Assembly (NCBI GenBank): GCA_050123055.1
Contig: JASFHU010000001.1
Coordinates: 1-51,686, forward strand
DNA from: Anaerolineae bacterium
GTDB taxonomy: Bacteria > Chloroflexota > Anaerolineae > JAAYZQ01
DNA: 51,686 bases
Reading direction: 5' to 3'
The notes beneath the pieces are model-generated. The model saw nothing but the letters and a program-made list of their open reading frames with translations. It was not told the DNA's origin and did not search any database. Every line of letters starts with the position of its first letter. Position 1 is the first letter of the stretch. Shown in pieces: positions 26,730-51,686 of the stretch. A program made the position numbers and the translations under genes.

Positions 26730-29700
26730 TCATTCGGCCAGCAGCTCAGCCCGCTGTCGATATTCCGTGGGCGATAGACCCGTCACCTTGCGGAACACCC
26801 GGCTAAAGTAGGCCGGATCCTTGAACCCGACCTGGCGGGCTACTGTCCCAATATCTTCGCTGGTGTGGCGCAACCGTTCTTTGGCCTGCAGGATACGGTA
26901 TCGATTCAAGTACTCCCAGGGAGAAAGGCCCAACTCCTGGCGAAACACCCGGCTGAGGTAGTCCTCGCTGACGCCAATCGCATCGGCTATCTCCCAGCGC
27001 AGGAACGGCCGAGCATAGTTCTGATGAAAGTAGGCCACAGCTTGCTTGACCAGCGCACTGGTGTGTTGCGGTAGTGTCTCCCTGCCAAACAGAACCTGGT
27101 GTAGCGAGGCCACGATCTCATCTCTCGACAGGATGCCCTTGCTCTGCAGGGTGACCAACGCATGCCGCTCCAGTCGCTTGACATCATCGTTGGTGAGTAC
27201 CCGACCGCTCAAGATCAGGACTGGTACCCGCCGCGTCCGATCATTGGCCCGCATCCAGTCTAGCACGTCGAATCCATCCATCTCGGGCATCATGAGATCC
27301 AGGATCACCAGGCTGGGAACTTCTTGGGCCATGCAGGCCAGGGCGGCAGCGCCATCGGCGGCGGTGTGGATGAGGTAGCCGCTGCATCCCTCTGCCACGA
27401 CCTGCTGGTACAGATCGAGCACCTCGGGATCGTCATCTACGATGAGGATCGGACCGGCGTCTTCTGGGGGGCAGATGCTATTAATGGCCTCCATCAAGCT
27501 GGTTCCATCCAGTGGCTTGGCGACAAAGTCGGTCATGCCGATGCTCAGGGCCGCACCCTTACCCGTTTCCTGGCCATACAGGATAAAGGGGGCCTGCGAC
27601 AGCTTGGGGTGATTCCTCAGTCGCCGGACAACTACCCAATCGCCGGAGCGGGCATTGGCCAGGTCCCAGGCCAGGGCGGCGGGTTCCACCCTCTGCATGA
27701 CCGCGCCAAGGTCGTCGGTTGGCCGCAAGTTGTGGATCTCCAGGCCCTGGCAGCGGCTGAATTCGACGATCTCGGCGGCTGGCCGATCGTGAGAGGAGAT
27801 CAGGAGGAGGACAGGCTGGGCTGCCACTGAGGGGAGAGAGGGCCGATCGCTCAAGGTAGGCAGAGGCAGGTAGAGGTGAAACGTGCTCCCCTGGCCCGGC
27901 TGGCTTTCCAACTCTACGGAGCCGCGGTGCAGTGCTACTAGCCGGCGGGTGATGGTCAACCCCAGGCCCGCCCCTTCCAGCCTTCGATTCGCCTGACCGG
28001 CAGTGACAAAGGGCTCAAAGATACGCTCCTGCATCTCGATCGGAATACCGGGTCCCGTGTCCTGGACCCAGATGTGCAGAGCCTCTGCCATGACCTCGGC
28101 TCCCAGGGTGACCCAGCCCCGCTCTACGAACTTGCTGGCATTGCTCAATAGATTGAGCAAGATCTGCCGTAGCCGCACTGGATCGGCCTGTACCGTGGGC
28201 AAGCGCTCGGGTAGCTGCAGGTGCCAGGCGACCTCGTCGCGAGAATCGGCACTCGCCATACTGCGAAAGGCTTCTTCCAGCAGCGGGCGAGGGTCCATGA
28301 GCTCCAGGTACAGGTCGAGTTCGTCGATCTCGGCCCGTGAAAGGTCGAGCAGGTCATTGATCACCCTCAGTTGGTGCCTTGCGCTCTGGTGAATGTGTAA
28401 CAGATCGTTCAGCAATTCCTCTGGCAGGTCAGCGCCGTAGGGCATTGGCGAGCCCAGTGCCTCTTGCGCGCAACCAATGATCACGTTCAATGGGGTGCGT
28501 AGCTCGTGGCTCACGTTTGCCAGCAACCGCATCTTGAGCCGATCAGCCTTCTCTGCAGCAGCCCGGGCCTGGCGAGTTTCATCGAACAGGAGAGCGCCCT
28601 TTAGCGAGCTGCTGATCTGCCCGCGCAGTACCTCGTAGATCGTCCCATCTTTCGGCCCGACTCCGAACAGCGCAACTCCAATCTGTTCATTGCGAAAATG
28701 GAGCGGTTCGACCACCAGGTTGCAGGGCCTGTCGGGTCTACGCTGGCCTGTCAAGTCGAGTGGTGCCAGGTGCTCGGAAGGGAAACTTATTTCATCGGGC
28801 GTCAACGCCATGCGCCCGGTTTCATCATAGGCCAGGACCAAGCGTGACCGTTCGATCGTTTCCTGCGGGTTCTCGTACAAAGAAAGGTAGCAGCACTCAA
28901 TACCTAATGCCGGCAAATCTCGAGCCAGGACGTCTGCCAGCTCTGCCACGTCAAAGGTGGTGACGAGCGCCCGGCCAATCTGTTGCAAGGTTTGGGTCTG
29001 GCCGGTCCTGCGCACCATCTCGTGGCCTTGGGTCCGTCGCACCGCTTCACCAATCAGGACCCGCGCCTGCCCGAAAAGATCCTCAGCCTGACGAAGGGCC
29101 TCTGCGTCAGCATCGCCGAAACTGGGCAACGTGTGGCGGCGCAACGTCGACACCACATCCTGCCAGCCCTGGACCTGACCACTGGCCAGCATACCCTGGC
29201 GCAAGAGCTGATCCAGTTCCTGCAAAAACTTGCCCTCCGCGGCTGGAGCACCAGTCACCTGAGCGACGAAAGGATCGAACAGTCGAGGCGCCCAGTCGGT
29301 CCCCAGTCCCTTGGTCACGCTACCTGCCGCCTGCACCATCGCCTGGAGAGTGACCTCCCGCCGTGCGGAAAGCACGGTCGTTAGGGTCGCTTCAGTCGCT
29401 GATGGGAGTGTGGGGTCTGTGGCTGCCCGAACCACCGAGGGCAACAGGCAGCCACACGACTGGCGTACCTTCAACTTGGCCGGCAGGGCCACCTGCTCGG
29501 GCACTTGTTCACCAGCCAGCATCGCCAGCAGCATCTCCACCGCTCTCCGTCCCTGCTCGTAGAACGGCAATCTCACCGAAGTCAGCGGTGGTGTAACAAA
29601 CCTGCTCTCCAGCACATCGTTGAATCCCACCAGAGCTATCGCCTCGGGGACCTTGATGTTTCGTGTCTGCAGCTCTTCGAGCGCACCCAATGCGGGAAGG

Positions 29701-30392
29701 TCGCTTACAGTCACTACCGCCTCAATGTCCACCTGGGGGCGCAGGTTTCGTTCATCCAGCAGCAGGCGGATTCCCCCGGCGCCCGTAGCTGGGACAAACT
29801 CGCCAGGCATGGTAACAAGGTTGGGATCCAGGGGGATGCCATGCGCCTCCAGCGCGTCGGTATAGGCCCGGTAGCGTTCCTGCGCATAGTAGTGGCTCTC
29901 GGGCCCACGGACAAAAGACAAGCGACGGTATCCGTGGACCTCAACCAGGTGGGCGATCATGTCCCTCATGCCCTGGTAGCTATCGATCGATACGGTGGGT
30001 ATGCCTTCCATCGGCAAGGTGATGCTGACCATCGGCAGAGGATAGTAGCGGTCGTGAAAGCTCGCGACTTTGTCGGGTTCGAGGGTTCCGCCAACAGAAG
30101 AGGCCCAGGTCACCAGGCCGTCCACAACCTCCGCGCTGGCCAGACTATATGCTACGTTGGCCGGCGAGGGGAAACCAGCAGGGTCGCGCAGGGTCTCTCC
30201 GGCAAAGCAGATCAGGTGGGCGCCACGCTCCCGGGCCGCATCAACCACACCAGACCACAATGCTTGGCTAACATTGTCGCCAATCCGAGGGGTTAGATAG
30301 CCAATGGTGGGGCGTGTGTCGCGTGGCTCAAACGAGGCTATGGCTCCATCTGCATGCTGTGTGTCGTATCTACCGCCAACAACTGAGGACAT
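26730..30392 (-). CDS. Soluble hybrid two-component regulator: LacI-type sugar-binding fold, GAF-like region, HisKA/HATPase kinase, degenerate receiver, canonical receiver, AraC HTH
   Basis: Track ORF 26730..30419 starts with TTG; the ATG at 30392 follows AGGAGG. H-box SHELRTPL (His codon 28506-28508), N box LLNLLSNASKF, G boxes DTGPGIP and GAGLGLTI. The receiver Asp in LVILDLMMPEMDG is at 27297-27299. The C-terminal AraC-type HTH has GFKDPAYFSRVFRK. I saw no hydrophobic TM segment. Confidence 0.85.
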   Translation of the reverse strand: MSSVVGGRYDTQHADGAIASFEPRDTRPTIGYLTPRIGDNVSQALWSGVVDAARERGAHLICFAGETLRDPAGFPSPANVAYSLASAEVVDGLVTWASSVGGTLEPDKVASFHDRYYPLPMVSITLPMEGIPTVSIDSYQGMRDMIAHLVEVHGYRRLSFVRGPESHYYAQERYRAYTDALEAHGIPLDPNLVTMPGEFVPATGAGGIRLLLDERNLRPQVDIEAVVTVSDLPALGALEELQTRNIKVPEAIALVGFNDVLESRFVTPPLTSVRLPFYEQGRRAVEMLLAMLAGEQVPEQVALPAKLKVRQSCGCLLPSVVRAATDPTLPSATEATLTTVLSARREVTLQAMVQAAGSVTKGLGTDWAPRLFDPFVAQVTGAPAAEGKFLQELDQLLRQGMLASGQVQGWQDVVSTLRRHTLPSFGDADAEALRQAEDLFGQARVLIGEAVRRTQGHEMVRRTGQTQTLQQIGRALVTTFDVAELADVLARDLPALGIECCYLSLYENPQETIERSRLVLAYDETGRMALTPDEISFPSEHLAPLDLTGQRRPDRPCNLVVEPLHFRNEQIGVALFGVGPKDGTIYEVLRGQISSSLKGALLFDETRQARAAAEKADRLKMRLLANVSHELRTPLNVIIGCAQEALGSPMPYGADLPEELLNDLLHIHQSARHQLRVINDLLDLSRAEIDELDLYLELMDPRPLLEEAFRSMASADSRDEVAWHLQLPERLPTVQADPVRLRQILLNLLSNASKFVERGWVTLGAEVMAEALHIWVQDTGPGIPIEMQERIFEPFVTAGQANRRLEGAGLGLTITRRLVALHRGSVELESQPGQGSTFHLYLPLPTLSDRPSLPSVAAQPVLLLISSHDRPAAEIVEFSRCQGLEIHNLRPTDDLGAVMQRVEPAALAWDLANARSGDWVVVRRLRNHPKLSQAPFILYGQETGKGAALSIGMTDFVAKPLDGTSLMEAINSICPPEDAGPILIVDDDPEVLDLYQQVVAEGCSGYLIHTAADGAAALACMAQEVPSLVILDLMMPEMDGFDVLDWMRANDRTRRVPVLILSGRVLTNDDVKRLERHALVTLQSKGILSRDEIVASLHQVLFGRETLPQHTSALVKQAVAYFHQNYARPFLRWEIADAIGVSEDYLSRVFRQELGLSPWEYLNRYRILQAKERLRHTSEDIGTVARQVGFKDPAYFSRVFRKVTGLSPTEYRQRAELLAE

Positions 30393-30433
30393 TCGCCTCC
30401 TGGTGCAGCAAGCGCCCAAATGCTCAAGATCTG

Positions 30434-45361: not shown

Positions 45362-45630
45362 AGGACAACAAAAAAGCCCTCGCCCATGGGGCGAGAGGCA
45401 AGCTCACGCGGTTCCACCCAATTCAGCCAGCCGGCGGCTGGCCATCTCCAAGGCCGGCAACGGGGCCATCCGGAGCCCTATACTCTCGCCTGCGGCGATT
45501 TGAAGGGCCCACTCCCAGGGGGTTTTCGACAGTTTCTGGCGATGCAGGCTTGCAGCCGGTGACCCGCACTCTCTGGCGCTTTCCGCCGCCTACTCGTCCT
45601 GGTCGACGTGTTCTCGATCTTCTATTGCTC
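45362..45630 (-). promoter_or_regulatory. T-box riboswitch leader of thrS (threonine specifier candidate ACU)
   Basis: Minus strand has AAUUGGGUGGAACCGCG (plus coordinates 45407-45423), which matches the conserved T-box sequence, followed by a terminator hairpin plus U6. Upstream elements: AGAGA bulge motif (CCAGAGAGUG), GAGUA, and GAA-ACU-G at 45531-45533 in specifier-loop geometry. Confidence 0.8.
45370..45399 (-). terminator. Intrinsic terminator of the T-box expression platform
   Basis: Minus strand GCCUCUCGCCC-CAU-GGGCGAGGGC followed by UUUUUU. Its 5' arm overlaps the 3' part of the T-box sequence, giving a terminator/antiterminator alternative. Confidence 0.75.
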
Positions 45631-45660: not shown

Positions 45661-45784
45661 GTGCCAGTGGAAAAAATCATAGGGTTTTGGAAAGTGTCCC
45701 TATAGAGGTTTCTCGCGCTCGTCAGGCGACCATGCAGCAACCCTGAGGGATCCAAGAAACGATGGCCAGGGACGCCATTCCGTC

Positions 45785-47059
45785 TCAAGTTCGCGAGCTA
45801 CCGGCCACTACTGCTTCCTGTTCTAGCTTTAGACCTCGGGCTAGCATGTATTGGATGAGCTCCGACATGTCGGCCAGATGGGGGTGGTGGGTCAAGCGAG
45901 CCAGCCGGCGCTCGTCGGCAGGGCTCAGGGGTTTGGCCCAAAGGGCGTAGGCATTGAGTGTATCCATATCCATCCGGTAGGGTCTGAAACGGGGGGAGAC
46001 CAGCCGCCGCAACTGGGCCAGGATACTCAGGCCTCCGCAGTCCAGATCGGCCCAGACCAGCAGCGGAACGCGCTCTGGGAGGCCCTGGGAAAGAGTTTGC
46101 AGCAGGTGGCGGCAGGAGGGCGAGGGATTACCCCCCAAGTAGAGCGCGGCCAGACCCGCCGGCTCGCGGCGGATCAGCTCATAGAGCGGCGTCAGGTTCT
46201 CGACGCACACCACTTGCTGGGCATCCACAGTGACCTCCTGGACCCCCGCCGCGAGTCGCGCTGGGAGGCCCACCGATGGTTCAAAGTCGCGCAGGTCATG
46301 GGCGACGCCCCGGCGATCGACCAACCGCCAGGGGCCATAGAGGTAGATGTGGCCGGGGTTGGAGACCAGCCCCAATTCCAAGAGTACCTCGTGAGGTCTC
46401 AACTCGCGCCAGTCGGGTCCGTGGCGGCGGGCCAGGTGTACCACCGCCCTGCGGAGCGCGTCGAAGCGTTTGCTATCGTTAAAGAGGCGCACACTGAAGA
46501 CGCGGATGGGCATCTCTTCGACCACGTCGCCCAGAGCCACCAGGGCGGCCAACAGGTCGCGGTTGTGATCCTCGTCGGTGAGGGAAAAGGGTGCGGGCGA
46601 GCGCTCCTCCTTGAGCTGCTTCAGGGTGTGCTGCACCGCCCGGAGCCGCCAGCCGTCGATCCGGTACCGGTCACTCAACAGGAGGTCGCGCAGTCGAGCG
46701 CGGCGCTCGGCCAGAGTAGTGCGGCCCAGCAGGGCAAAGGCGTCACCGGCGCGGTCCGGGTTGAGCGTGGCAGATTCCAGCAAATGGCCGGTCTCGCCAG
46801 GTAGCCAGGTCAAATCTACCAGGCCGGAGCGCTCCAACCGCCAGAACTGCTCATTGGCCACCTGGCGCGGCTCGGGGTCCAGTTGACTGGTATAGCCGGT
46901 AAGGTCCAGCGCCTCGAGATCGCAGCGGATGATGCGGGCGCGAGGATCCTGGCGCCGCTCGTACTGGTCGAGCAGGTTGTTCAGGATGGTGGCTACGTCG
47001 CGCGTAGGCGTGAAGGACAATAACTGAGACATGGTGTTTCCGTCCCTATCCGTGCCCAT
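45785..47059 (-). CDS. jetD: Wadjet JetD (Toprim/topoisomerase-VI-like nuclease subunit)
   Basis: 424 aa; an alternative ATG lies at 47032. The C-terminal half has VVCVENLTPLYEL (Toprim Glu) and LLVWADLDCGGLSIL (DxD), as in DUF2220-type JetD. Last gene of the SMC-like operon. Confidence 0.75.
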   Translation of the reverse strand: MGTDRDGNTMSQLLSFTPTRDVATILNNLLDQYERRQDPRARIIRCDLEALDLTGYTSQLDPEPRQVANEQFWRLERSGLVDLTWLPGETGHLLESATLNPDRAGDAFALLGRTTLAERRARLRDLLLSDRYRIDGWRLRAVQHTLKQLKEERSPAPFSLTDEDHNRDLLAALVALGDVVEEMPIRVFSVRLFNDSKRFDALRRAVVHLARRHGPDWRELRPHEVLLELGLVSNPGHIYLYGPWRLVDRRGVAHDLRDFEPSVGLPARLAAGVQEVTVDAQQVVCVENLTPLYELIRREPAGLAALYLGGNPSPSCRHLLQTLSQGLPERVPLLVWADLDCGGLSILAQLRRLVSPRFRPYRMDMDTLNAYALWAKPLSPADERRLARLTHHPHLADMSELIQYMLARGLKLEQEAVVAGSSRT

Positions 47060-50000
47060 TCCCCCGCTGCTCCGCCTGCAGATGTTTTATCATCTCCGCC
47101 TTGTCGATCTCGATCACAAAAGCGTGATTGTTCTTGCGCACTACGGTGCGTACCGCATCCACATAGGGCAATAGGCCGCCGGCCTTGTCGGGCGGGGTGG
47201 CCAAGATCACCTGCAACTGGCTATCGACCATGAATTGGAGGGCGCTGGCCGTACGGGCGGTATCCATCTTGCCGAATGCTTCGTCAAAGAGGGCCAAGCG
47301 CACCGTATCGGCGTGGCGAGGCTGGTTGAGGCGGTAGGCCTGGGCAAAGGAGGCGGCCATGGCTACGTAGAATGGCGTGGTAGTCTCGCCGCCCGACTTT
47401 TTGGCGTTGATCTTGCTCAGCAGTGCCCGGTCGCCGTTGGGATAGTGGATGCGGATGTCGTATTGCAGGTAGTTGCGATAGTCCTGTAGTTCCTGCAACT
47501 CACGGTCTGTGTCGTCGTCCAGGCCGACAGTCAGTCGTTCGAACAGCAGGTCCCAACCCTGCTGGTGCCGCTGCCGAAAATCGGAATCGAAGAGGCTCGA
47601 TCCCAGAACCGTCTGGCTGTCCATGATCAGGCCATACACCTGACGCAGCGACGGCTCGGGCCTGGTGATGAACTCAAAGCGCTCGCCGCCGAAGCGGAGC
47701 GCCGACAGGGTAGCGTTGAGATAGCCCAGTTGCTGGCGTGCATCTTCGATCTGCTCCCGCAGGCGGTGGATAAAGTTCTCCACCAATTCCTGCTCGGCTA
47801 GGGCGCGCTGCTCGGCGATGCGCTCCTCGTACTGGGGAAGCTCTGACTCGACGAACTTGTCTCGCTCGTGGACATAGCGGGCAGCGTCTTCGTCGCTGTC
47901 AAAGCCAAAGTCATGGGCCAGGCTGTAGGCCTGTTTGGCCTCGCGCAAGCGGTCGCGACTCCGGTTCTCGGCGGTCTGATAGTCACCCTCGTACCGTGCC
48001 GCATTGTGCAGGATGGTCTCGATGGGCTGGCGCTTGCGGCGGCGCTCATACTCGTGCTGTAGATCCTCAAGTAGTTCTTCTGCGCCCTCTTCCTGGAGAA
48101 AGATCGCTGCGTCCTGGAGAGCCTCGTCCGCCGCCCGCTCCAAGCCGGGCAGTGTTGCATCGTTCAGGGTGGCTACCTGTTCCTCCAGGCGGCCAATCTC
48201 CCGCTCTAGCTGGCTGAACTGGCCTTGCAGGTCGTCCACTTTGGCCTGGTGTTGCTCTACCGCGGCTCGCAGCGTCTCGATCGTCTGGGTATTCAGGCCT
48301 GCCAGCTCGGCCTGCAGGTCAGCCATCTGTTGCTCCCGTGCGGGAAGGGGGGCGACGGCCGGAAGATCGCGCTCCAGGTGGTAGAAGAGGCGCACCTTGT
48401 CGCGGGTCAGGGTCAGGCGCTGGGCCAGGCCATCCGAACGTACCTGCAGGGCGGCCATCTCTTGGGCGATGGCGGTCAACTGGCTCTCGCGCTCCTCGAT
48501 CTGGCGGGGGAGCGCCCGCTCGCCGATAAACCAACGGCGGTAGATGCGCGGGTTCAGGTGGCTGGTGGTGTAAGTGCGCCGGACAAAACAGTCTCGGCTG
48601 ACGGCGGTGCGGTGGTCGCGCAGTTCCTCCAGGGTGTCACACTTGACGTAGCTGCCCAGGACCAGATCCACAAAGGCACGGGCTGCCGGGTGCTCGGTCT
48701 CGACCTCGCGGGCCAGGGTGCCGGCGCGGGCCGGGCGGGTGTTGGCCACCAACCGCTCGCCGTCCAGCAGACCCACGCCGTGGAGCCCGTCCTGGTGGCG
48801 GCGTCGATAGAGGGCCATCGCCGCGTCATAGTGCTCCGGCGGGACGAACAGGTGGAAGCGATTGCGTCCCAGCAATCCCTCAATCGCGTCCTGCCACGAT
48901 TCGTCGGGTACACGCAGCAGGGTGCACAAGTAGGGGACCTCCTCTGCAGCCAGGCCCAGTTCGGCTCTCAGCAGGCGGCGCAACCGGGCTGCCTGAGGCG
49001 CTTCAGTGTCGGTGCTGACGTCGCGGTCGCCGGTGCGGAGTTGAATGATCTCCCGCTTCAAGCCTTCCGCTTCGCGACCGAGTTGGACCACCTGCTCGTC
49101 GACCAGCGCCTGCTGCCGGGCGTACTCGTCGCCCAGGATCGCCAGGTCCACCTGGAGGCTGGCGATGGCGTCCAACAGCTCGGCGTCCAGTCCCCCCTTC
49201 CGCTCGGCGAATCGGTCCAGCGGCGCAGGCACATCCAGCCCATCCTCCTGCAACAGGGTCCTCAGTTCATCGGTCGCAGATTGCTCTTTTGACACAAGGT
49301 CGCTGAGTTCGAGCCTGTGGCCGCGGAGGGCGGTCACTTCCTCCTCCAGGGCGGCGATTTCCTGGCGCAGGGCTGCTTCGCGGGCAGCGGTCGCATCGGT
49401 CTGGAGGGCGACCTGGGCGTCAAGGAGCGCCTGGCGGGCAAACCCCAGGTTCTCCTCCAGGCTGCCGCGGCGCAGCTCGGCCCGGCTGAGATCCATACGC
49501 TTCTCATCCAGCTCGTGCCGCCGGAGCTCGAGGGCAGCCAGGTGATGGTCGCCCTGGGCGTGGCGGCGGATGTAGCCGTTTGTGATGCGCCTCCGGCGCT
49601 GGGTTGTCCGCTCCTGGTCCAGTTCCTCGATGCGGTTCAGTTCTTCTATGCGCTGGCGGACGTCGGCGGCCAGGTCTTCAAAGTGGCGCAACGTCTCCAA
49701 CTGTTCCTGCAGCACGTGGACGTCCACCAGGTTTTCGTCGAGGAGGTAGTTGTGCACAAAATCGCGGATCTTGGTCAGCGGGCTAAAGGCCAGCCCCTTG
49801 ACGATCTTGGCCGGGAAGGTGTCCTTGAGCTGGCCCAGCCGGTTGAGGAGGTGAAAGCGATAGTCCTCCAGCCGGGTGAAGAGGTGTGCCCGGCTGCCGG
49901 CTGGCAGGGCAAAGTGCTCCAGGTGGCGGCGGAAGGCGCGGCTGTCGTAGAGCTTGCCGGGCGCGCGAAAGAACCAATTGTCGTTGAGGGGCGCGCCATT

Positions 50001-50378
50001 GACCAAAAAGTAGACCACGTTGGGCGAGCGACCATCCTCGTAGGCGTCGACGACGGCACCATGGACAAAGTGGGTGGCATCCTCCTCGCAGAACTCGAGG
50101 GCTACCACGCCCGTCGAGTCGCCGCGCAGGAAACGCTGCCCCTCGGTGCCCAGCTCGCCGCGCACGTAGCTGGTCAGGGTGCGGCGGCTGCCGCTCATGG
50201 CCGCCTGGTTGAACCTCACGTCACGCTGGCCGCCCACCAGGGCAAACTGCATGGCGTCGAGGATGGTCGACTTGCCGGTGCCGTTGGTGCCGATAAAGTA
50301 GGTGGTCCCGTTGCAGGTGATCGTGGAATTCTCAAACAGGTGCCAGTTGATGAGCCGAATGCGCTTGAGCTCTTTCAT
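47046..50378 (-). CDS. jetC: Wadjet JetC (SMC/MukB-like ATPase)
   Basis: 1110 aa. N-terminal RLINWHLFENSTI...FIGTNGTGKSTILDAMQFAL (Walker A), about 700 aa of heptad-rich E/R/L/Q coiled coil, then KKSGGETTTPFYVAMAASF (signature) and LALFDEAFGKMD (Walker B). ATGA overlap with jetB. Confidence 0.85.
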   Translation of the reverse strand: MKELKRIRLINWHLFENSTITCNGTTYFIGTNGTGKSTILDAMQFALVGGQRDVRFNQAAMSGSRRTLTSYVRGELGTEGQRFLRGDSTGVVALEFCEEDATHFVHGAVVDAYEDGRSPNVVYFLVNGAPLNDNWFFRAPGKLYDSRAFRRHLEHFALPAGSRAHLFTRLEDYRFHLLNRLGQLKDTFPAKIVKGLAFSPLTKIRDFVHNYLLDENLVDVHVLQEQLETLRHFEDLAADVRQRIEELNRIEELDQERTTQRRRRITNGYIRRHAQGDHHLAALELRRHELDEKRMDLSRAELRRGSLEENLGFARQALLDAQVALQTDATAAREAALRQEIAALEEEVTALRGHRLELSDLVSKEQSATDELRTLLQEDGLDVPAPLDRFAERKGGLDAELLDAIASLQVDLAILGDEYARQQALVDEQVVQLGREAEGLKREIIQLRTGDRDVSTDTEAPQAARLRRLLRAELGLAAEEVPYLCTLLRVPDESWQDAIEGLLGRNRFHLFVPPEHYDAAMALYRRRHQDGLHGVGLLDGERLVANTRPARAGTLAREVETEHPAARAFVDLVLGSYVKCDTLEELRDHRTAVSRDCFVRRTYTTSHLNPRIYRRWFIGERALPRQIEERESQLTAIAQEMAALQVRSDGLAQRLTLTRDKVRLFYHLERDLPAVAPLPAREQQMADLQAELAGLNTQTIETLRAAVEQHQAKVDDLQGQFSQLEREIGRLEEQVATLNDATLPGLERAADEALQDAAIFLQEEGAEELLEDLQHEYERRRKRQPIETILHNAARYEGDYQTAENRSRDRLREAKQAYSLAHDFGFDSDEDAARYVHERDKFVESELPQYEERIAEQRALAEQELVENFIHRLREQIEDARQQLGYLNATLSALRFGGERFEFITRPEPSLRQVYGLIMDSQTVLGSSLFDSDFRQRHQQGWDLLFERLTVGLDDDTDRELQELQDYRNYLQYDIRIHYPNGDRALLSKINAKKSGGETTTPFYVAMAASFAQAYRLNQPRHADTVRLALFDEAFGKMDTARTASALQFMVDSQLQVILATPPDKAGGLLPYVDAVRTVVRKNNHAFVIEIDKAEMIKHLQAEQRGNGHG

Positions 50379-50998
50379 ACCTGCTCCTCCACTTCTGCCA
50401 CACGGTACTTTCGCAACCAGGCCTCCATTTCATCCACGGTCTGGACGGGCAAGATCATGGACACGGACCCACGGAGCCGCAACCTCGCCTCGCTGTCGCG
50501 AACGTCCAGAGTGCGCCCATTCAGCGGTTCGATCAGTCCCAAGCGCTTCAGGCGCTTGAGGATGTCCTCGTACTGGGTGATGCCCAGGGCGCGCTCCTTG
50601 CCGGTGATGGTGCGGTACTCCTCACGTACCTCGCCGATGGTGACCACCGGGTCGGCTGCCAGGCTGAGGCGTTCGGCCTGCTCCTCGTAAAGCTTGCGCA
50701 GGACGGTGATCATGAGCGTCTCATCGAGCTTGTAGCGCTGGCGGCAGTAGCCAAAATCGGAGACGACCTGGAAGATGCGGTGGTACTCGTCGTGCAGGAG
50801 GACAAATCCAGACAGGGCCAGTAATGCCTCGAATACCTGCCGGTGGCGGTAGACCAGGTAATAGTCCTCTTTGCTGGCCTCATCCTCCCGGTAGAGAAAG
50901 GTCCCGCCCAGCAGGCGGTTCATCACCCGGGGCACCTCGCGGCGCACCTTGTCGGGCAGTGCGGTCTTTTCCAGTATCGATTGGGTGGTAAACTCCAT
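50375..50998 (-). CDS. jetB: Wadjet JetB (MukE-like, DUF4194-type)
   Basis: Track ORF 50375..51007 starts with GTG. The ATG at 50998 lies 7 nt after GGAGGT. About 207 aa, with a size and operon position (directly before the SMC-like gene) that match JetB. The identity call is mainly contextual. Confidence 0.65.
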   Translation of the reverse strand: MEFTTQSILEKTALPDKVRREVPRVMNRLLGGTFLYREDEASKEDYYLVYRHRQVFEALLALSGFVLLHDEYHRIFQVVSDFGYCRQRYKLDETLMITVLRKLYEEQAERLSLAADPVVTIGEVREEYRTITGKERALGITQYEDILKRLKRLGLIEPLNGRTLDVRDSEARLRLRGSVSMILPVQTVDEMEAWLRKYRVAEVEEQV

Positions 50999-51055
50999 CC
51001 CGCTCACCTCCTAGTGGCTGGGATCCGGACTCCACGGACCCAGTCAAGTTTCGCT

Positions 51056-51686
51056 CTAGCGACGGGCATCCGAGAGGCCCGGTGTCCCGAAAAGTGGCTT
51101 GACCAGTTGGAATGGTCTGACTCGGTACGGCCCGGCCGGGACCGGCTCGCCAGGCAAGGGCTCGACGTCGTACTCTGTGTCGGGGTGGTTGCCGTAGGCG
51201 ACGACGTGGATGAACCAGGGCAGGTCGTCGAACAGATCGGCAGGCAGATCGCGGACGTGGAGTTGGCGGTGACCGTTGAAGAGGTCCATGACGTAGCCGT
51301 TGATCTTTTCAGGTGTGAGTGTCTGGCTGATCTCCCGCAGGGTCAAAGCACGCAGGGCATCCGCGTCCAGGGGATCGAGCAGAGGGACGATGACCGGTTC
51401 CGGCAAGAAGGGCGCCCTGTGCCGCGGCGGCGTGTAGAAGCTGTTGATGTCCGGCGCGCGCAGGGAGGCTGCCTGTAGGGTGGGCATCTCTTCTGGTAGC
51501 CAGCGCTCGCCCTCGTCCAGTAGGGCGGCCAGGTTGCGGCCCAAAACGACCAGGCGCTCTTTGAAGCTGCCCTCGGCGTTGACCAGTTGGTAGCGCACCT
51601 GCCGCAGCGAAGTACGGAGATACTGGGCGTGGCGGCGGTCGATCTCATCCAGCAGGGGATCCAGTCCTTCCAGTTGGTGGATGGTG
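51056..51686 (-). CDS. jetA: Wadjet JetA (MukF-like kleisin), C-terminal ~210 codons; the gene continues beyond the right edge
   Basis: The frame stays open from 51056 to the window end (my translation upstream of the track's GTG gives ...TIHQLEGLDPLLDEIDRRHAQYLRTSLRQ-VRYQLVNAEG...). It sits first in the jetB-jetC-jetD gene order. The call is contextual. Confidence 0.55.
   Translation of the reverse strand, partial: TIHQLEGLDPLLDEIDRRHAQYLRTSLRQVRYQLVNAEGSFKERLVVLGRNLAALLDEGERWLPEEMPTLQAASLRAPDINSFYTPPRHRAPFLPEPVIVPLLDPLDADALRALTLREISQTLTPEKINGYVMDLFNGHRQLHVRDLPADLFDDLPWFIHVVAYGNHPDTEYDVEPLPGEPVPAGPYRVRPFQLVKPLFGTPGLSDARR

What the first reader, a model, noticed from the sequence alone, without database searches (positions are those of the whole stretch)
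45785..51686. SMC-like four-gene Wadjet (jetABCD) operon beside the thrS/infC housekeeping genes
Four co-directional, tightly coupled minus-strand genes match the type I Wadjet layout by order and size.
- jetA: the 3' ~210 codons of a large first gene, cut by the window edge.
- jetB: a ~207-aa protein.
- jetC: an 1110-aa SMC/MukB-like ATPase with Walker A GTNGTGKST, a long coiled coil, SGGE signature and LFDEAF Walker B.
- jetD: a 424-aa protein whose C-terminal half carries a Toprim-like Glu (VENLTP) and DxD (ADLDCGG).
- Coupling: jetB and jetC overlap by ATGA. jetC and jetD either overlap by 14 nt or are 14 nt apart, depending on the start chosen.

Wadjet is known (Doron et al. 2018) as an SMC-family system that restricts circular foreign DNA. 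This is the clearest multi-gene system in the window. The sequence-level points worth following up are:
- The operon abuts core translation genes, with only 125 nt between the jetD stop and the thrS promoter.
- No integrase or transposase is visible.
- All ATPase and Toprim motifs look intact.
Basis: partly seen in the sequence, partly recalled or inferred. Interest (0 to 1): 0.8.

Follow-up and report, generated by a model that had tools for sequence, protein, structure and literature searches.

The report
Type I Wadjet anti-plasmid operon
This is an ordinary, intact-looking copy of the known Wadjet (JetABCD) plasmid-restriction system in an uncultured Chloroflexota bacterium; the one addition is that in this lineage the operon starts with a small DNA-binding regulator gene lying just past the end of the contig.

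Summary
Four co-directional minus-strand genes lie at 45785-51686 with the stated sizes, motifs and junctions. All four match type I Wadjet models: JetA1 5e-20 (C-terminal fragment), JetB1 1e-36, JetC1 1e-265 over its full length, JetD1 2e-86. Type II models and MukBEF/MksE models score far lower or below cut-off. A predicted JetD structure matches topoisomerase VI-A and the Wadjet nuclease MksG. The Toprim acidic residues and the JetC ATPase motifs are present.

The window is an entire 51,686-bp contig of an Anaerolineae MAG, so jetA is cut by the contig end. Contigs 99.6% identical to it show a full 481-aa JetA.

Those contigs also show an 84-aa Cro/C1-type HTH gene overlapping the jetA start, behind a consensus promoter. 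This HTH gene precedes jetA in 71 of 73 related metagenomic loci. A palindrome lies just downstream of the -10 box in 44 of 69 of them. The flanks differ between species, so HTH-jetABCD behaves as a portable five-gene cassette.

No integrase or transposase is present in the window.

Verdict: a new member of a known kind, of low interest. The putative regulator is a modest lead and untested.

The parts
51056..51686 (-). jetA (kleisin subunit). The C-terminal 209 codons plus stop; the gene is cut by the end of the contig.
   Evidence: Pfam JetA PF18982 1.2e-23, matching model positions 242-432 of 434. PADLOC JetA1 5e-20. Full-length 481-aa JetA is present in the 99.6%-identical contigs L007 and L008.
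50375..50998 (-). jetB (KITE subunit, DUF4194), 207 aa from ATG. An alternative GTG start at 51007 gives 210 aa.
   Evidence: Pfam DUF4194 2.1e-23. PADLOC JetB1 1.1e-36. AGGAGG lies 8 nt upstream of the ATG. The exact 207-aa product was called on 7 other contigs.
47046..50378 (-). jetC (SMC/MukB-like ATPase), 1110 aa. Its start overlaps the jetB stop (ATGA).
   Evidence: PADLOC JetC1 PDLC00519 1.3e-265 over the full length. Pfam AAA_29 and SbcC_Walker_B. Walker A at 30-38, signature SGGE at 995-998, Walker B LFDEAF at 1030-1035.
45785..47059 (-). jetD (CAP plus Toprim nuclease), 424 aa from the first ATG. More likely 415 aa from the ATG at 47032.
   Evidence: PADLOC JetD1 2.4e-86. Pfam JetD_C 6.2e-18. 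E287, D338 and D340 are invariant in 37 homologues. The AlphaFold model has pLDDT 82.8. It matches Topo VI-A at E 2e-9 and MksG (8b7f) at E 2e-8.
45762..45778 (-). Weak hairpin with a T-containing tail directly after the jetD stop. A possible operon terminator, of low confidence.
   Evidence: Pattern scan only: 5 pairs, tail CGTTTCTTGG.

Best explanation
The region encodes a type I Wadjet (JetABCD, also called MksBEFG or EptABCD) system in the chromosome of an uncultured Anaerolineae (Chloroflexota) bacterium.

How it most likely works, by homology to the characterised E. coli GF4-3, P. aeruginosa and C. glutamicum systems:
- JetC (SMC ATPase), JetA (kleisin) and JetB (KITE) assemble into a dimer of motor units.
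- The complex loads on DNA and extrudes loops using ATP.
- On a small circular molecule, extrusion runs to completion and the motors stall.
- This licenses the JetD Toprim nuclease dimer to cut the DNA. Plasmids are destroyed in a sequence-independent way, while the large chromosome is spared.

Shown here: gene content and order, family membership of all four proteins, presence of the ATPase and Toprim catalytic residues, the JetD fold, and full-length jetA in near-identical contigs.

Inferred: complex assembly, loop extrusion, plasmid cleavage, and expression.

In this lineage the transcription unit most likely starts about 1.5 kb beyond the contig end. There, a consensus sigma-70 promoter drives an 84-aa Cro/C1 HTH gene whose stop overlaps the jetA start. 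I infer that this protein is an autoregulator of the operon, binding the palindrome next to the promoter.
For: Family membership:
- HMM matches of all four proteins to Wadjet type I models.
- A full-length JetC1 match at 1e-265.

Catalytic residues and fold:
- JetC Walker A, signature and Walker B motifs are present.
- JetD Toprim residues E287, D338 and D340 are invariant across 37 homologues.
- The JetD model resembles Topo VI-A, MksG and Spo11.

Operon structure and completeness:
- Overlapping or closely spaced genes, consistent with translational coupling.
- Intact 481-aa JetA in 99.6%-identical contigs.
- The same jetC-jetD-thrS arrangement in three further samples.

Mechanism: taken from the literature as summarised in PMC10586767 and from the abstracts of 10.1101/2022.10.04.510915, 10.1101/2023.11.03.565488 and PMC10889018.

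The HTH gene:
- It precedes jetA in 71 of 73 related loci.
- The -35 and -10 boxes are conserved.
- A GAACR-N1-4-YGTDC palindrome is present in 44 of 69 loci, against 0.33 expected in shuffles. In 33 of the 40 loci with both a promoter match and a downstream palindrome it lies 9-13 nt downstream of the -10 box.
Against: - There is no experimental evidence for this locus or for any Chloroflexota Wadjet.
- JetC and JetD are too diverged to hit any solved structure by sequence alone. The JetD profile gives only E 0.038 to Topo VI-A and 0.66 to MksG.
- TM-scores of the fold matches are modest (0.27-0.38 of the query). The model has a flexible two-domain shape and a disordered stretch at 181-198.
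- jetA and the promoter/HTH region are not on this contig, so their presence in this exact genome is inferred from 99.6%-identical contigs.
- In the window's own lineage the tight palindrome is degenerate: only the TAGAACA half-site plus a nearby GAAC-AAAG-GTTC remain.
- The JetB N-terminus has no obvious IFDR motif, which is reported to contact JetD in P. aeruginosa (sequence; motif).
Confidence: 0.88

Rival explanations
1. It is a chromosomal MksBEF/MukBEF-type condensin that organises the host chromosome rather than a defence system.
For: JetABC proteins are homologous to MukFEB. Weak sub-threshold hits were seen to MksE (23.2 bits) and MukB-N (19.3 bits). The operon sits among housekeeping genes with no mobile-element marker.
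Against: Both condensin hits are below their Pfam cut-offs, while the JetA, JetB and JetD_C models are well above theirs. A JetD Toprim nuclease gene directly follows jetC (13 nt apart, or a 14-nt overlap with the long start). Condensin-type MksBEF lacks this subunit. The cassette occupies different genomic sites in different species, which is typical of defence genes and not of core condensins.
Confidence: 0.04
2. It is a decayed or silent Wadjet remnant with no activity. For example, jetA could really be truncated in this genome, or the operon could be repressed permanently by the HTH protein.
For: jetA is incomplete on the contig. One relative (L003) shows jetC split into several ORFs. Expression is unknown.
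Against: All three complete genes are uninterrupted and their catalytic motifs are present. Near-identical contigs from several samples carry an intact jetA and the same proteins. The proteins are 57-88% identical across many loci with catalytic residues invariant, which indicates purifying selection. The L003 breaks are compatible with assembly errors.
Confidence: 0.06
3. It is another SMC-like defence system (Lamassu/DdmABC, PtuAB-type or Rad50/SbcCD-like) mis-read as Wadjet.
For: The JetC N-terminus gives weak hits to LmuB, PtuA, MADS3 and Rad50 models (E 1e-6 to 1e-9).
Against: Nearly all of these hits cover only about 45-75 residues around the P-loop; the one longer hit (LmuB, residues 4-455, E 4e-6) is still weak. 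The JetC1 model aligns end to end at 1e-265. The partner genes are JetA, JetB and JetD, not LmuA, PtuB or SbcD.
Confidence: 0.02

Closest known systems
Type I Wadjet JetABCD of E. coli GF4-3 and P. aeruginosa PA14 (structurally and biochemically characterised)
   Same: Same four-gene order jetA-jetB-jetC-jetD. Same families (kleisin, KITE, SMC ATPase, CAP-Toprim nuclease). Best PADLOC models are type I for all four proteins. ATPase and Toprim acidic motifs are present.
   Different: Very diverged in sequence: phmmer finds no PDB chain for JetC or JetD. The host is a Chloroflexota MAG. An extra Cro/C1 HTH gene heads the operon in this clade. No obvious IFDR motif at the JetB N-terminus.
MksBEFG of Corynebacterium glutamicum (MksG nuclease, PDB 8b7f) and EptABCD of Mycobacterium smegmatis
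   Same: The JetD model matches MksG by fold (Foldseek E 2e-8). The DxD-containing Toprim segment aligns with MksG (WADLDxGG against WGDLDLDG). It has the same role as the executing nuclease of a plasmid-defence SMC complex (PMC10123090).
   Different: Sequence similarity is marginal (profile E 0.66). Different phylum and different gene nomenclature.
Topoisomerase VI subunit A / Spo11
   Same: Best structural matches of the JetD model (E 2e-9 to 4e-6). Shares the Toprim acidic residues (alignment; NCBIfam Topo VI-A hit at 1e-4).
   Different: According to the literature, the JetD CAP domain lacks the catalytic tyrosine and JetD cuts DNA irreversibly (PMC10586767). The absence of the tyrosine was not tested here. 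There is no Topo VI-B partner.
MukBEF / MksBEF condensins
   Same: Homologous SMC-kleisin-KITE architecture. Weak MksE and MukB-N similarity.
   Different: The condensin models score below their cut-offs, and a JetD nuclease gene is present. In addition, the cassette sits at variable genomic positions.
Controller (C) proteins of restriction-modification systems, and the CapH and BrxR regulators of defence operons (analogy for the upstream HTH gene only)
   Same: A small (84-87 aa) Cro/C1-type HTH gene is the first gene of the operon and overlaps the next gene. The promoter and a palindrome next to it are conserved. There is a weak CapH similarity at E 0.002-0.004. WYL-type BrxR regulators have been reported upstream of some Wadjet loci (PMC9122601).
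   Different: No significant match to any curated regulator family. No CapP-like protease partner and no WYL domain. Binding and regulation are untested. The gene is not on the window's contig.

Membership tests
Wadjet type I (JetABCD) | Four co-directional genes in the order jetA-jetB-jetC-jetD forming one operon | tested here: met
   ORF map and junctions. jetA is only partly on the contig but is complete in 99.6%-identical contigs.
Wadjet type I (JetABCD) | JetA: MukF-like kleisin (Pfam PF18982, PADLOC JetA1) | tested here: met
   The fragment scores 83.9 bits against a cut-off of 26.2. JetA1 5e-20. The full-length protein in L007 scores 2e-85.
Wadjet type I (JetABCD) | JetB: MukE-like KITE protein (DUF4194) | tested here: met
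   DUF4194 scores 83.3 bits against a cut-off of 32.7. JetB1 1.1e-36.
Wadjet type I (JetABCD) | JetC: SMC/MukB-like ATPase with Walker A, signature and Walker B motifs separated by a long coiled coil | tested here: met
   JetC1 1.3e-265, end to end. Motifs at 30-38, 995-998 and 1030-1035. The coiled coil and hinge were not modelled separately.
Wadjet type I (JetABCD) | JetD: N-terminal CAP-like domain plus C-terminal Toprim domain with a conserved Glu and DxD | tested here: met
   JetD1 2.4e-86. JetD_C 65.2 bits. E287, D338 and D340 invariant. Fold matches to Topo VI-A and MksG.
Wadjet type I (JetABCD) | Type I rather than type II or III by sequence | tested here: met
   All best PADLOC models are JetA1/B1/C1/D1. 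JetC2 scores 1.3e-6 and JetD2 2.3e-6.
Wadjet type I (JetABCD) | The JetD CAP domain lacks the catalytic tyrosine of Topo VI-A/Spo11 | not tested
   No residue-level structural superposition was made. An invariant Y56 exists in this clade's N-terminal domain, but its position relative to the Topo VI tyrosine was not examined.
Wadjet type I (JetABCD) | Restricts small circular DNA in an ATP- and JetD-dependent manner | not testable with these tools
   Requires a transformation or plasmid-stability assay with EQ and Toprim mutants.
MukBEF / MksBEF condensin | Subunits reach the MukB/MksE family thresholds and there is no nuclease subunit | tested here: not met
   MksE scores 23.2 bits (below 27) and MukB-N 19.3 bits (below 23). 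A jetD nuclease gene is present.
Lamassu (LmuAB/DdmABC) | LmuB SMC-like ATPase together with an LmuA effector | tested here: not met
   LmuB scores only 4e-6, against 1e-265 for JetC1. No LmuA-like partner is present.
C-protein-like or autoregulatory HTH controller (for the upstream gene seen in relatives) | A small Cro/C1 HTH protein encoded first in the operon, with a conserved palindromic operator at its own promoter | tested here: inconclusive
   HTH_26 5.5e-11. Overlaps jetA by 29 nt. Present in 71 of 73 loci. Palindrome present in 44 of 69 loci but degenerate in the window's own lineage. Binding and regulation are untested.

The most novel reading that the evidence does not exclude
A clade of type I Wadjet systems, seen here in Chloroflexota genomes and related metagenomic contigs, is a five-gene cassette rather than a four-gene one. 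A dedicated 84-aa Cro/C1 HTH protein is translationally coupled to JetA. It binds a palindrome at the transcription start of its own consensus promoter and so sets the expression level of the SMC nuclease complex. This would be analogous to C-protein control of restriction-modification systems, for example by delaying or capping expression when the cassette enters a new host. It would be a Wadjet-specific regulatory module not included in the current DefenseFinder/PADLOC definitions.
Probability: 0.45. Interest if true: 0.4.

Novelty: new member of a known kind. Interest (0 to 1): 0.22.

Why it matters
As it stands, this adds one more Wadjet type I locus from a poorly studied phylum. It is useful for annotation and as a hint that this organism resists small plasmids, which is relevant if anyone tries to make Anaerolineae genetically tractable.

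The only part that could add knowledge is the conserved HTH gene and its operator-like palindrome. How Wadjet expression is controlled is little studied. A dedicated, portable regulator would be a simple, testable model for that question.

Tried and rejected
- Sequence searches of JetC and JetD against PDB chains found nothing. A 37-sequence JetD profile gave only marginal hits, so membership rests on the Pfam/PADLOC HMMs and the fold search.
- Exact-protein look-ups for JetC and for the 210-aa JetB found nothing. The 207-aa JetB form worked.
- The look-up with identical ThrS was meant to find strains lacking the cassette next to thrS. All three contigs found carry it, so no empty site was obtained and the insertion boundaries are not defined at nucleotide level.
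- Rfam at gathering thresholds found nothing in the window. The T-box only appears with the E-value threshold.
- No tRNA gene that could serve as an integration site was found. GC content across the operon (0.60-0.67) is not distinct from the rest of the contig, so there is no compositional sign of recent transfer.
- Literature searches for a Wadjet-linked XRE/HTH regulator found only the BrxR/WYL co-localisation report. One further search failed on syntax.
- The condensin, Lamassu and Rad50-like readings were considered and rejected on HMM scores and partner genes.


Full report
**1. What is in the sequence**

The minus strand of 45785-51686 carries four consecutive ORFs:
- A 209-codon C-terminal fragment that runs off the end of the sequence (51056-51686).
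- A 207/210-aa ORF (50375-50998, or to 51007 with the GTG start).
- An 1110-aa ORF (47046-50378).
- A 415/424-aa ORF (45785-47032, or to 47059 with the first ATG).

- jetB and jetC overlap by ATGA.
- The jetC stop overlaps the first jetD ATG by 14 nt. It lies 13 nt before the second ATG, which database gene calls and homologue lengths favour.
- jetA and jetB are 57 nt apart, with AGGAGG in front of the jetB ATG.

The quoted motifs are all present. In JetC these are GTNGTGKST at 30-38, SGGE at 995-998 and LFDEAF at 1030-1035. In JetD these are VENLT at 286-290 and DLDCGG at 338-343.

A perfect TTGACA-16-TATAAT promoter lies 124 nt after the jetD stop. It is followed by a T-box leader and by thrS and infC.

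**2. Family assignment**

Pfam places the four proteins in JetA (PF18982), DUF4194/JetB, AAA_29 plus SbcC_Walker_B, and JetD_C. All score above their gathering cut-offs.

PADLOC gives type I models as the best hit for each protein:
- JetA1 5e-20.
- JetB1 1e-36.
- JetC1 1e-265, aligned over residues 1-1098.
- JetD1 2e-86.

The type II models reach only about 1e-6. MksE and MukB-N fall below their cut-offs. Nearly all hits to Rad50, RecF, PtuA and MADS3 cover only the P-loop region, and the single longer LmuB hit is weak (E 4e-6).

**3. JetD in more detail**

Neither JetC nor JetD hits any solved structure by sequence. A 37-sequence JetD profile reaches Topo VI-A only at E 0.038 and MksG at 0.66. 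The aligned segments do cover the Toprim Glu and the DxD.

An AlphaFold model built on that alignment has mean pLDDT 82.8, with a disordered stretch at 181-198. Foldseek against the PDB returns:
- Topo VI-A: 9o0g and 1d3y, E about 2e-9.
- The C. glutamicum Wadjet nuclease MksG: 8b7f, E 2e-8.
- Spo11: 8urq, E 4e-6.

TM-scores are modest (0.27-0.38 of the query), as expected for a flexible two-domain protein. E287, D338 and D340 are invariant in the alignment. This fits the published description of JetD as a CAP plus Toprim nuclease (PMC10586767). I did not test whether the CAP domain lacks the topoisomerase tyrosine.

**4. Origin and completeness**

The identical JetD is annotated in NCBI as coming from a MAG of 'Anaerolineae bacterium'. 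Its longest contig is 51,686 bp, so the window is the whole contig and jetA is cut by the assembly.

Looking up the 207-aa JetB found JGI metagenome contigs (L007, L008) that are 99.6% identical over about 2.7 kb and extend 1.5 kb further. They show a complete 481-aa JetA with a Pfam match of 2e-85.

Contigs carrying an identical ThrS, from three further samples, all have jetC-jetD directly upstream of thrS-infC-rpmI-rplT. The arrangement is therefore fixed in this population.

**5. A fifth gene**

In L007 and L008, jetA is preceded by an 84-aa Cro/C1-type HTH gene (HTH_26, 5.5e-11). Its last 29 nt overlap the jetA start. It sits behind a TTGACA-17-TATAAT promoter.

The same layout is found in more distant Chloroflexota loci:
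- L003: 74% JetD identity.
- L013/L014: 71%.
- L015: 61%.
- It is absent from a Roseilinea locus, L016.

A metagenome scan with a JetA alignment returned 80 loci at 57-79% identity. Of the 73 with at least 300 nt upstream, 71 have the HTH gene next to jetA.

Aligning 69 upstream regions shows:
- A -35 element (TGTCTTGACA) conserved in more than 90% of loci, and a -10 element (GTATAAT) with most positions conserved in about 90%.
- A palindrome of the form TAGAACA-N2-3-TGTTCTA, usually 9-13 nt downstream of the -10 box.

The palindrome pattern is found in 44 of 69 loci, against 0.33 expected in shuffled sequences. In the window's own lineage only the TAGAACA half-site and a nearby GAAC-AAAG-GTTC remain.

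The protein matches no curated regulator family. Its only similarity is a weak one to CapH, at E 0.002-0.004. I infer an autoregulatory repressor, but this is untested.

WYL-type BrxR regulators have been reported next to some Wadjet loci (PMC9122601). I found no report of a Cro/C1 HTH as part of a Wadjet operon, though the paper library is incomplete.

**6. Context**

The flanks of HTH-jetABCD differ between species:
- This population: a PIN-domain gene upstream and thrS downstream.
- L003: an SNF2 helicase (BrxH/DrmD-like) and a Cys-rich 607-aa protein upstream, and HicAB-like genes downstream.
- L013: an HNH/SRA nuclease upstream and a beta-lactamase-family gene downstream.
- L015: DUF7282 upstream and ABC-2 transporter genes downstream.

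So the five genes move as a unit and often sit beside other defence or toxin-antitoxin genes.

Within the window there is no integrase, transposase or tRNA gene, and GC content is unremarkable. The rest of the contig encodes pectin/uronate utilisation enzymes, an oligopeptide-type ABC transporter, regulators and housekeeping genes.

**7. Mechanism**

This part is by homology only. JetABC would form a dimeric SMC motor that extrudes DNA loops. Complete extrusion of a small circle would stall the motors and activate JetD to cleave the DNA, giving sequence-independent restriction of plasmids (abstracts listed).

Everything beyond gene content, motifs and fold is inferred for this locus.

**8. Verdict**

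This is a standard type I Wadjet operon in a new host lineage. Its homologues are already labelled as Wadjet JetD in public annotation. It is a new member of a known kind, of low interest.

The HTH gene and its operator-like palindrome are a modest, testable addition. They lie outside the contig and outside current system definitions.

Noticed in passing
window 45384-45615 (-), with promoter at 45660-45633 and terminator hairpin at 45397-45377: A T-box leader lies upstream of thrS. It scores 76.1 bits against Rfam RF00230 (E 1e-16), below the family's gathering score of 93, so it is missed at default thresholds. The specifier region reads GAAA-ACC-CC, so the specifier appears to be the Thr codon ACC. 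A consensus promoter and an intrinsic terminator/antiterminator arrangement are present.
   Followed up: partly
window 51686 (sequence end): The window is a complete 51,686-bp MAG contig ('Anaerolineae bacterium'). The truncation of jetA is therefore an assembly break, not a window artefact.
   Followed up: yes
L007 6-224 (about 1.3-1.5 kb beyond the window end): A PIN_3-domain (VapC-like) gene fragment lies directly upstream of the HTH-jetABCD promoter in the near-identical contigs. It may be part of a toxin-antitoxin pair. The contig ends there.
   Followed up: no
L015 6111-6575: In one relative (NCBI GCA_040961635.1), a 154-aa 23S_rRNA_IVP-family (four-helix-bundle) gene is inserted between jetB and jetC. 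It breaks the usual jetB/jetC overlap and has no PADLOC match.
   Followed up: no
L003 6677-10016: jetC of the Chloroflexia MAG MFD00709.bin.2.156 is split over at least three overlapping ORFs in different frames. These are probably assembly frameshifts but could reflect a pseudogene. The JetA C-terminus also changes frame there.
   Followed up: no
L003 587-4227 and 11208-13418: The Wadjet cassette of L003 is flanked upstream by an SNF2 helicase (BrxH/DrmD-like, 4e-75) and a Cys-rich 607-aa protein with no family match. Downstream lie HicB-like and HicA-domain ORFs. The HicA ORF as listed also carries Mg-chelatase C-terminal domains, possibly a frameshift fusion. It looks like a small defence island.
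   Followed up: partly
window 571-26678: There is a large minus-strand cluster for pectin/unsaturated uronate use: GH28, two GH88, KduI, an oligogalacturonate-lyase-like protein, UxuA-like protein, sulfatase and several oxidoreductases. It comes with an Opp-type ABC transporter and a LacI regulator.
   Followed up: no
window 26730-30419 (-): A 1229-aa hybrid regulator combines a periplasmic sugar-binding domain, a histidine kinase, a receiver domain and an AraC HTH in one protein. This is the architecture of hybrid two-component systems of polysaccharide utilisation loci.
   Followed up: no
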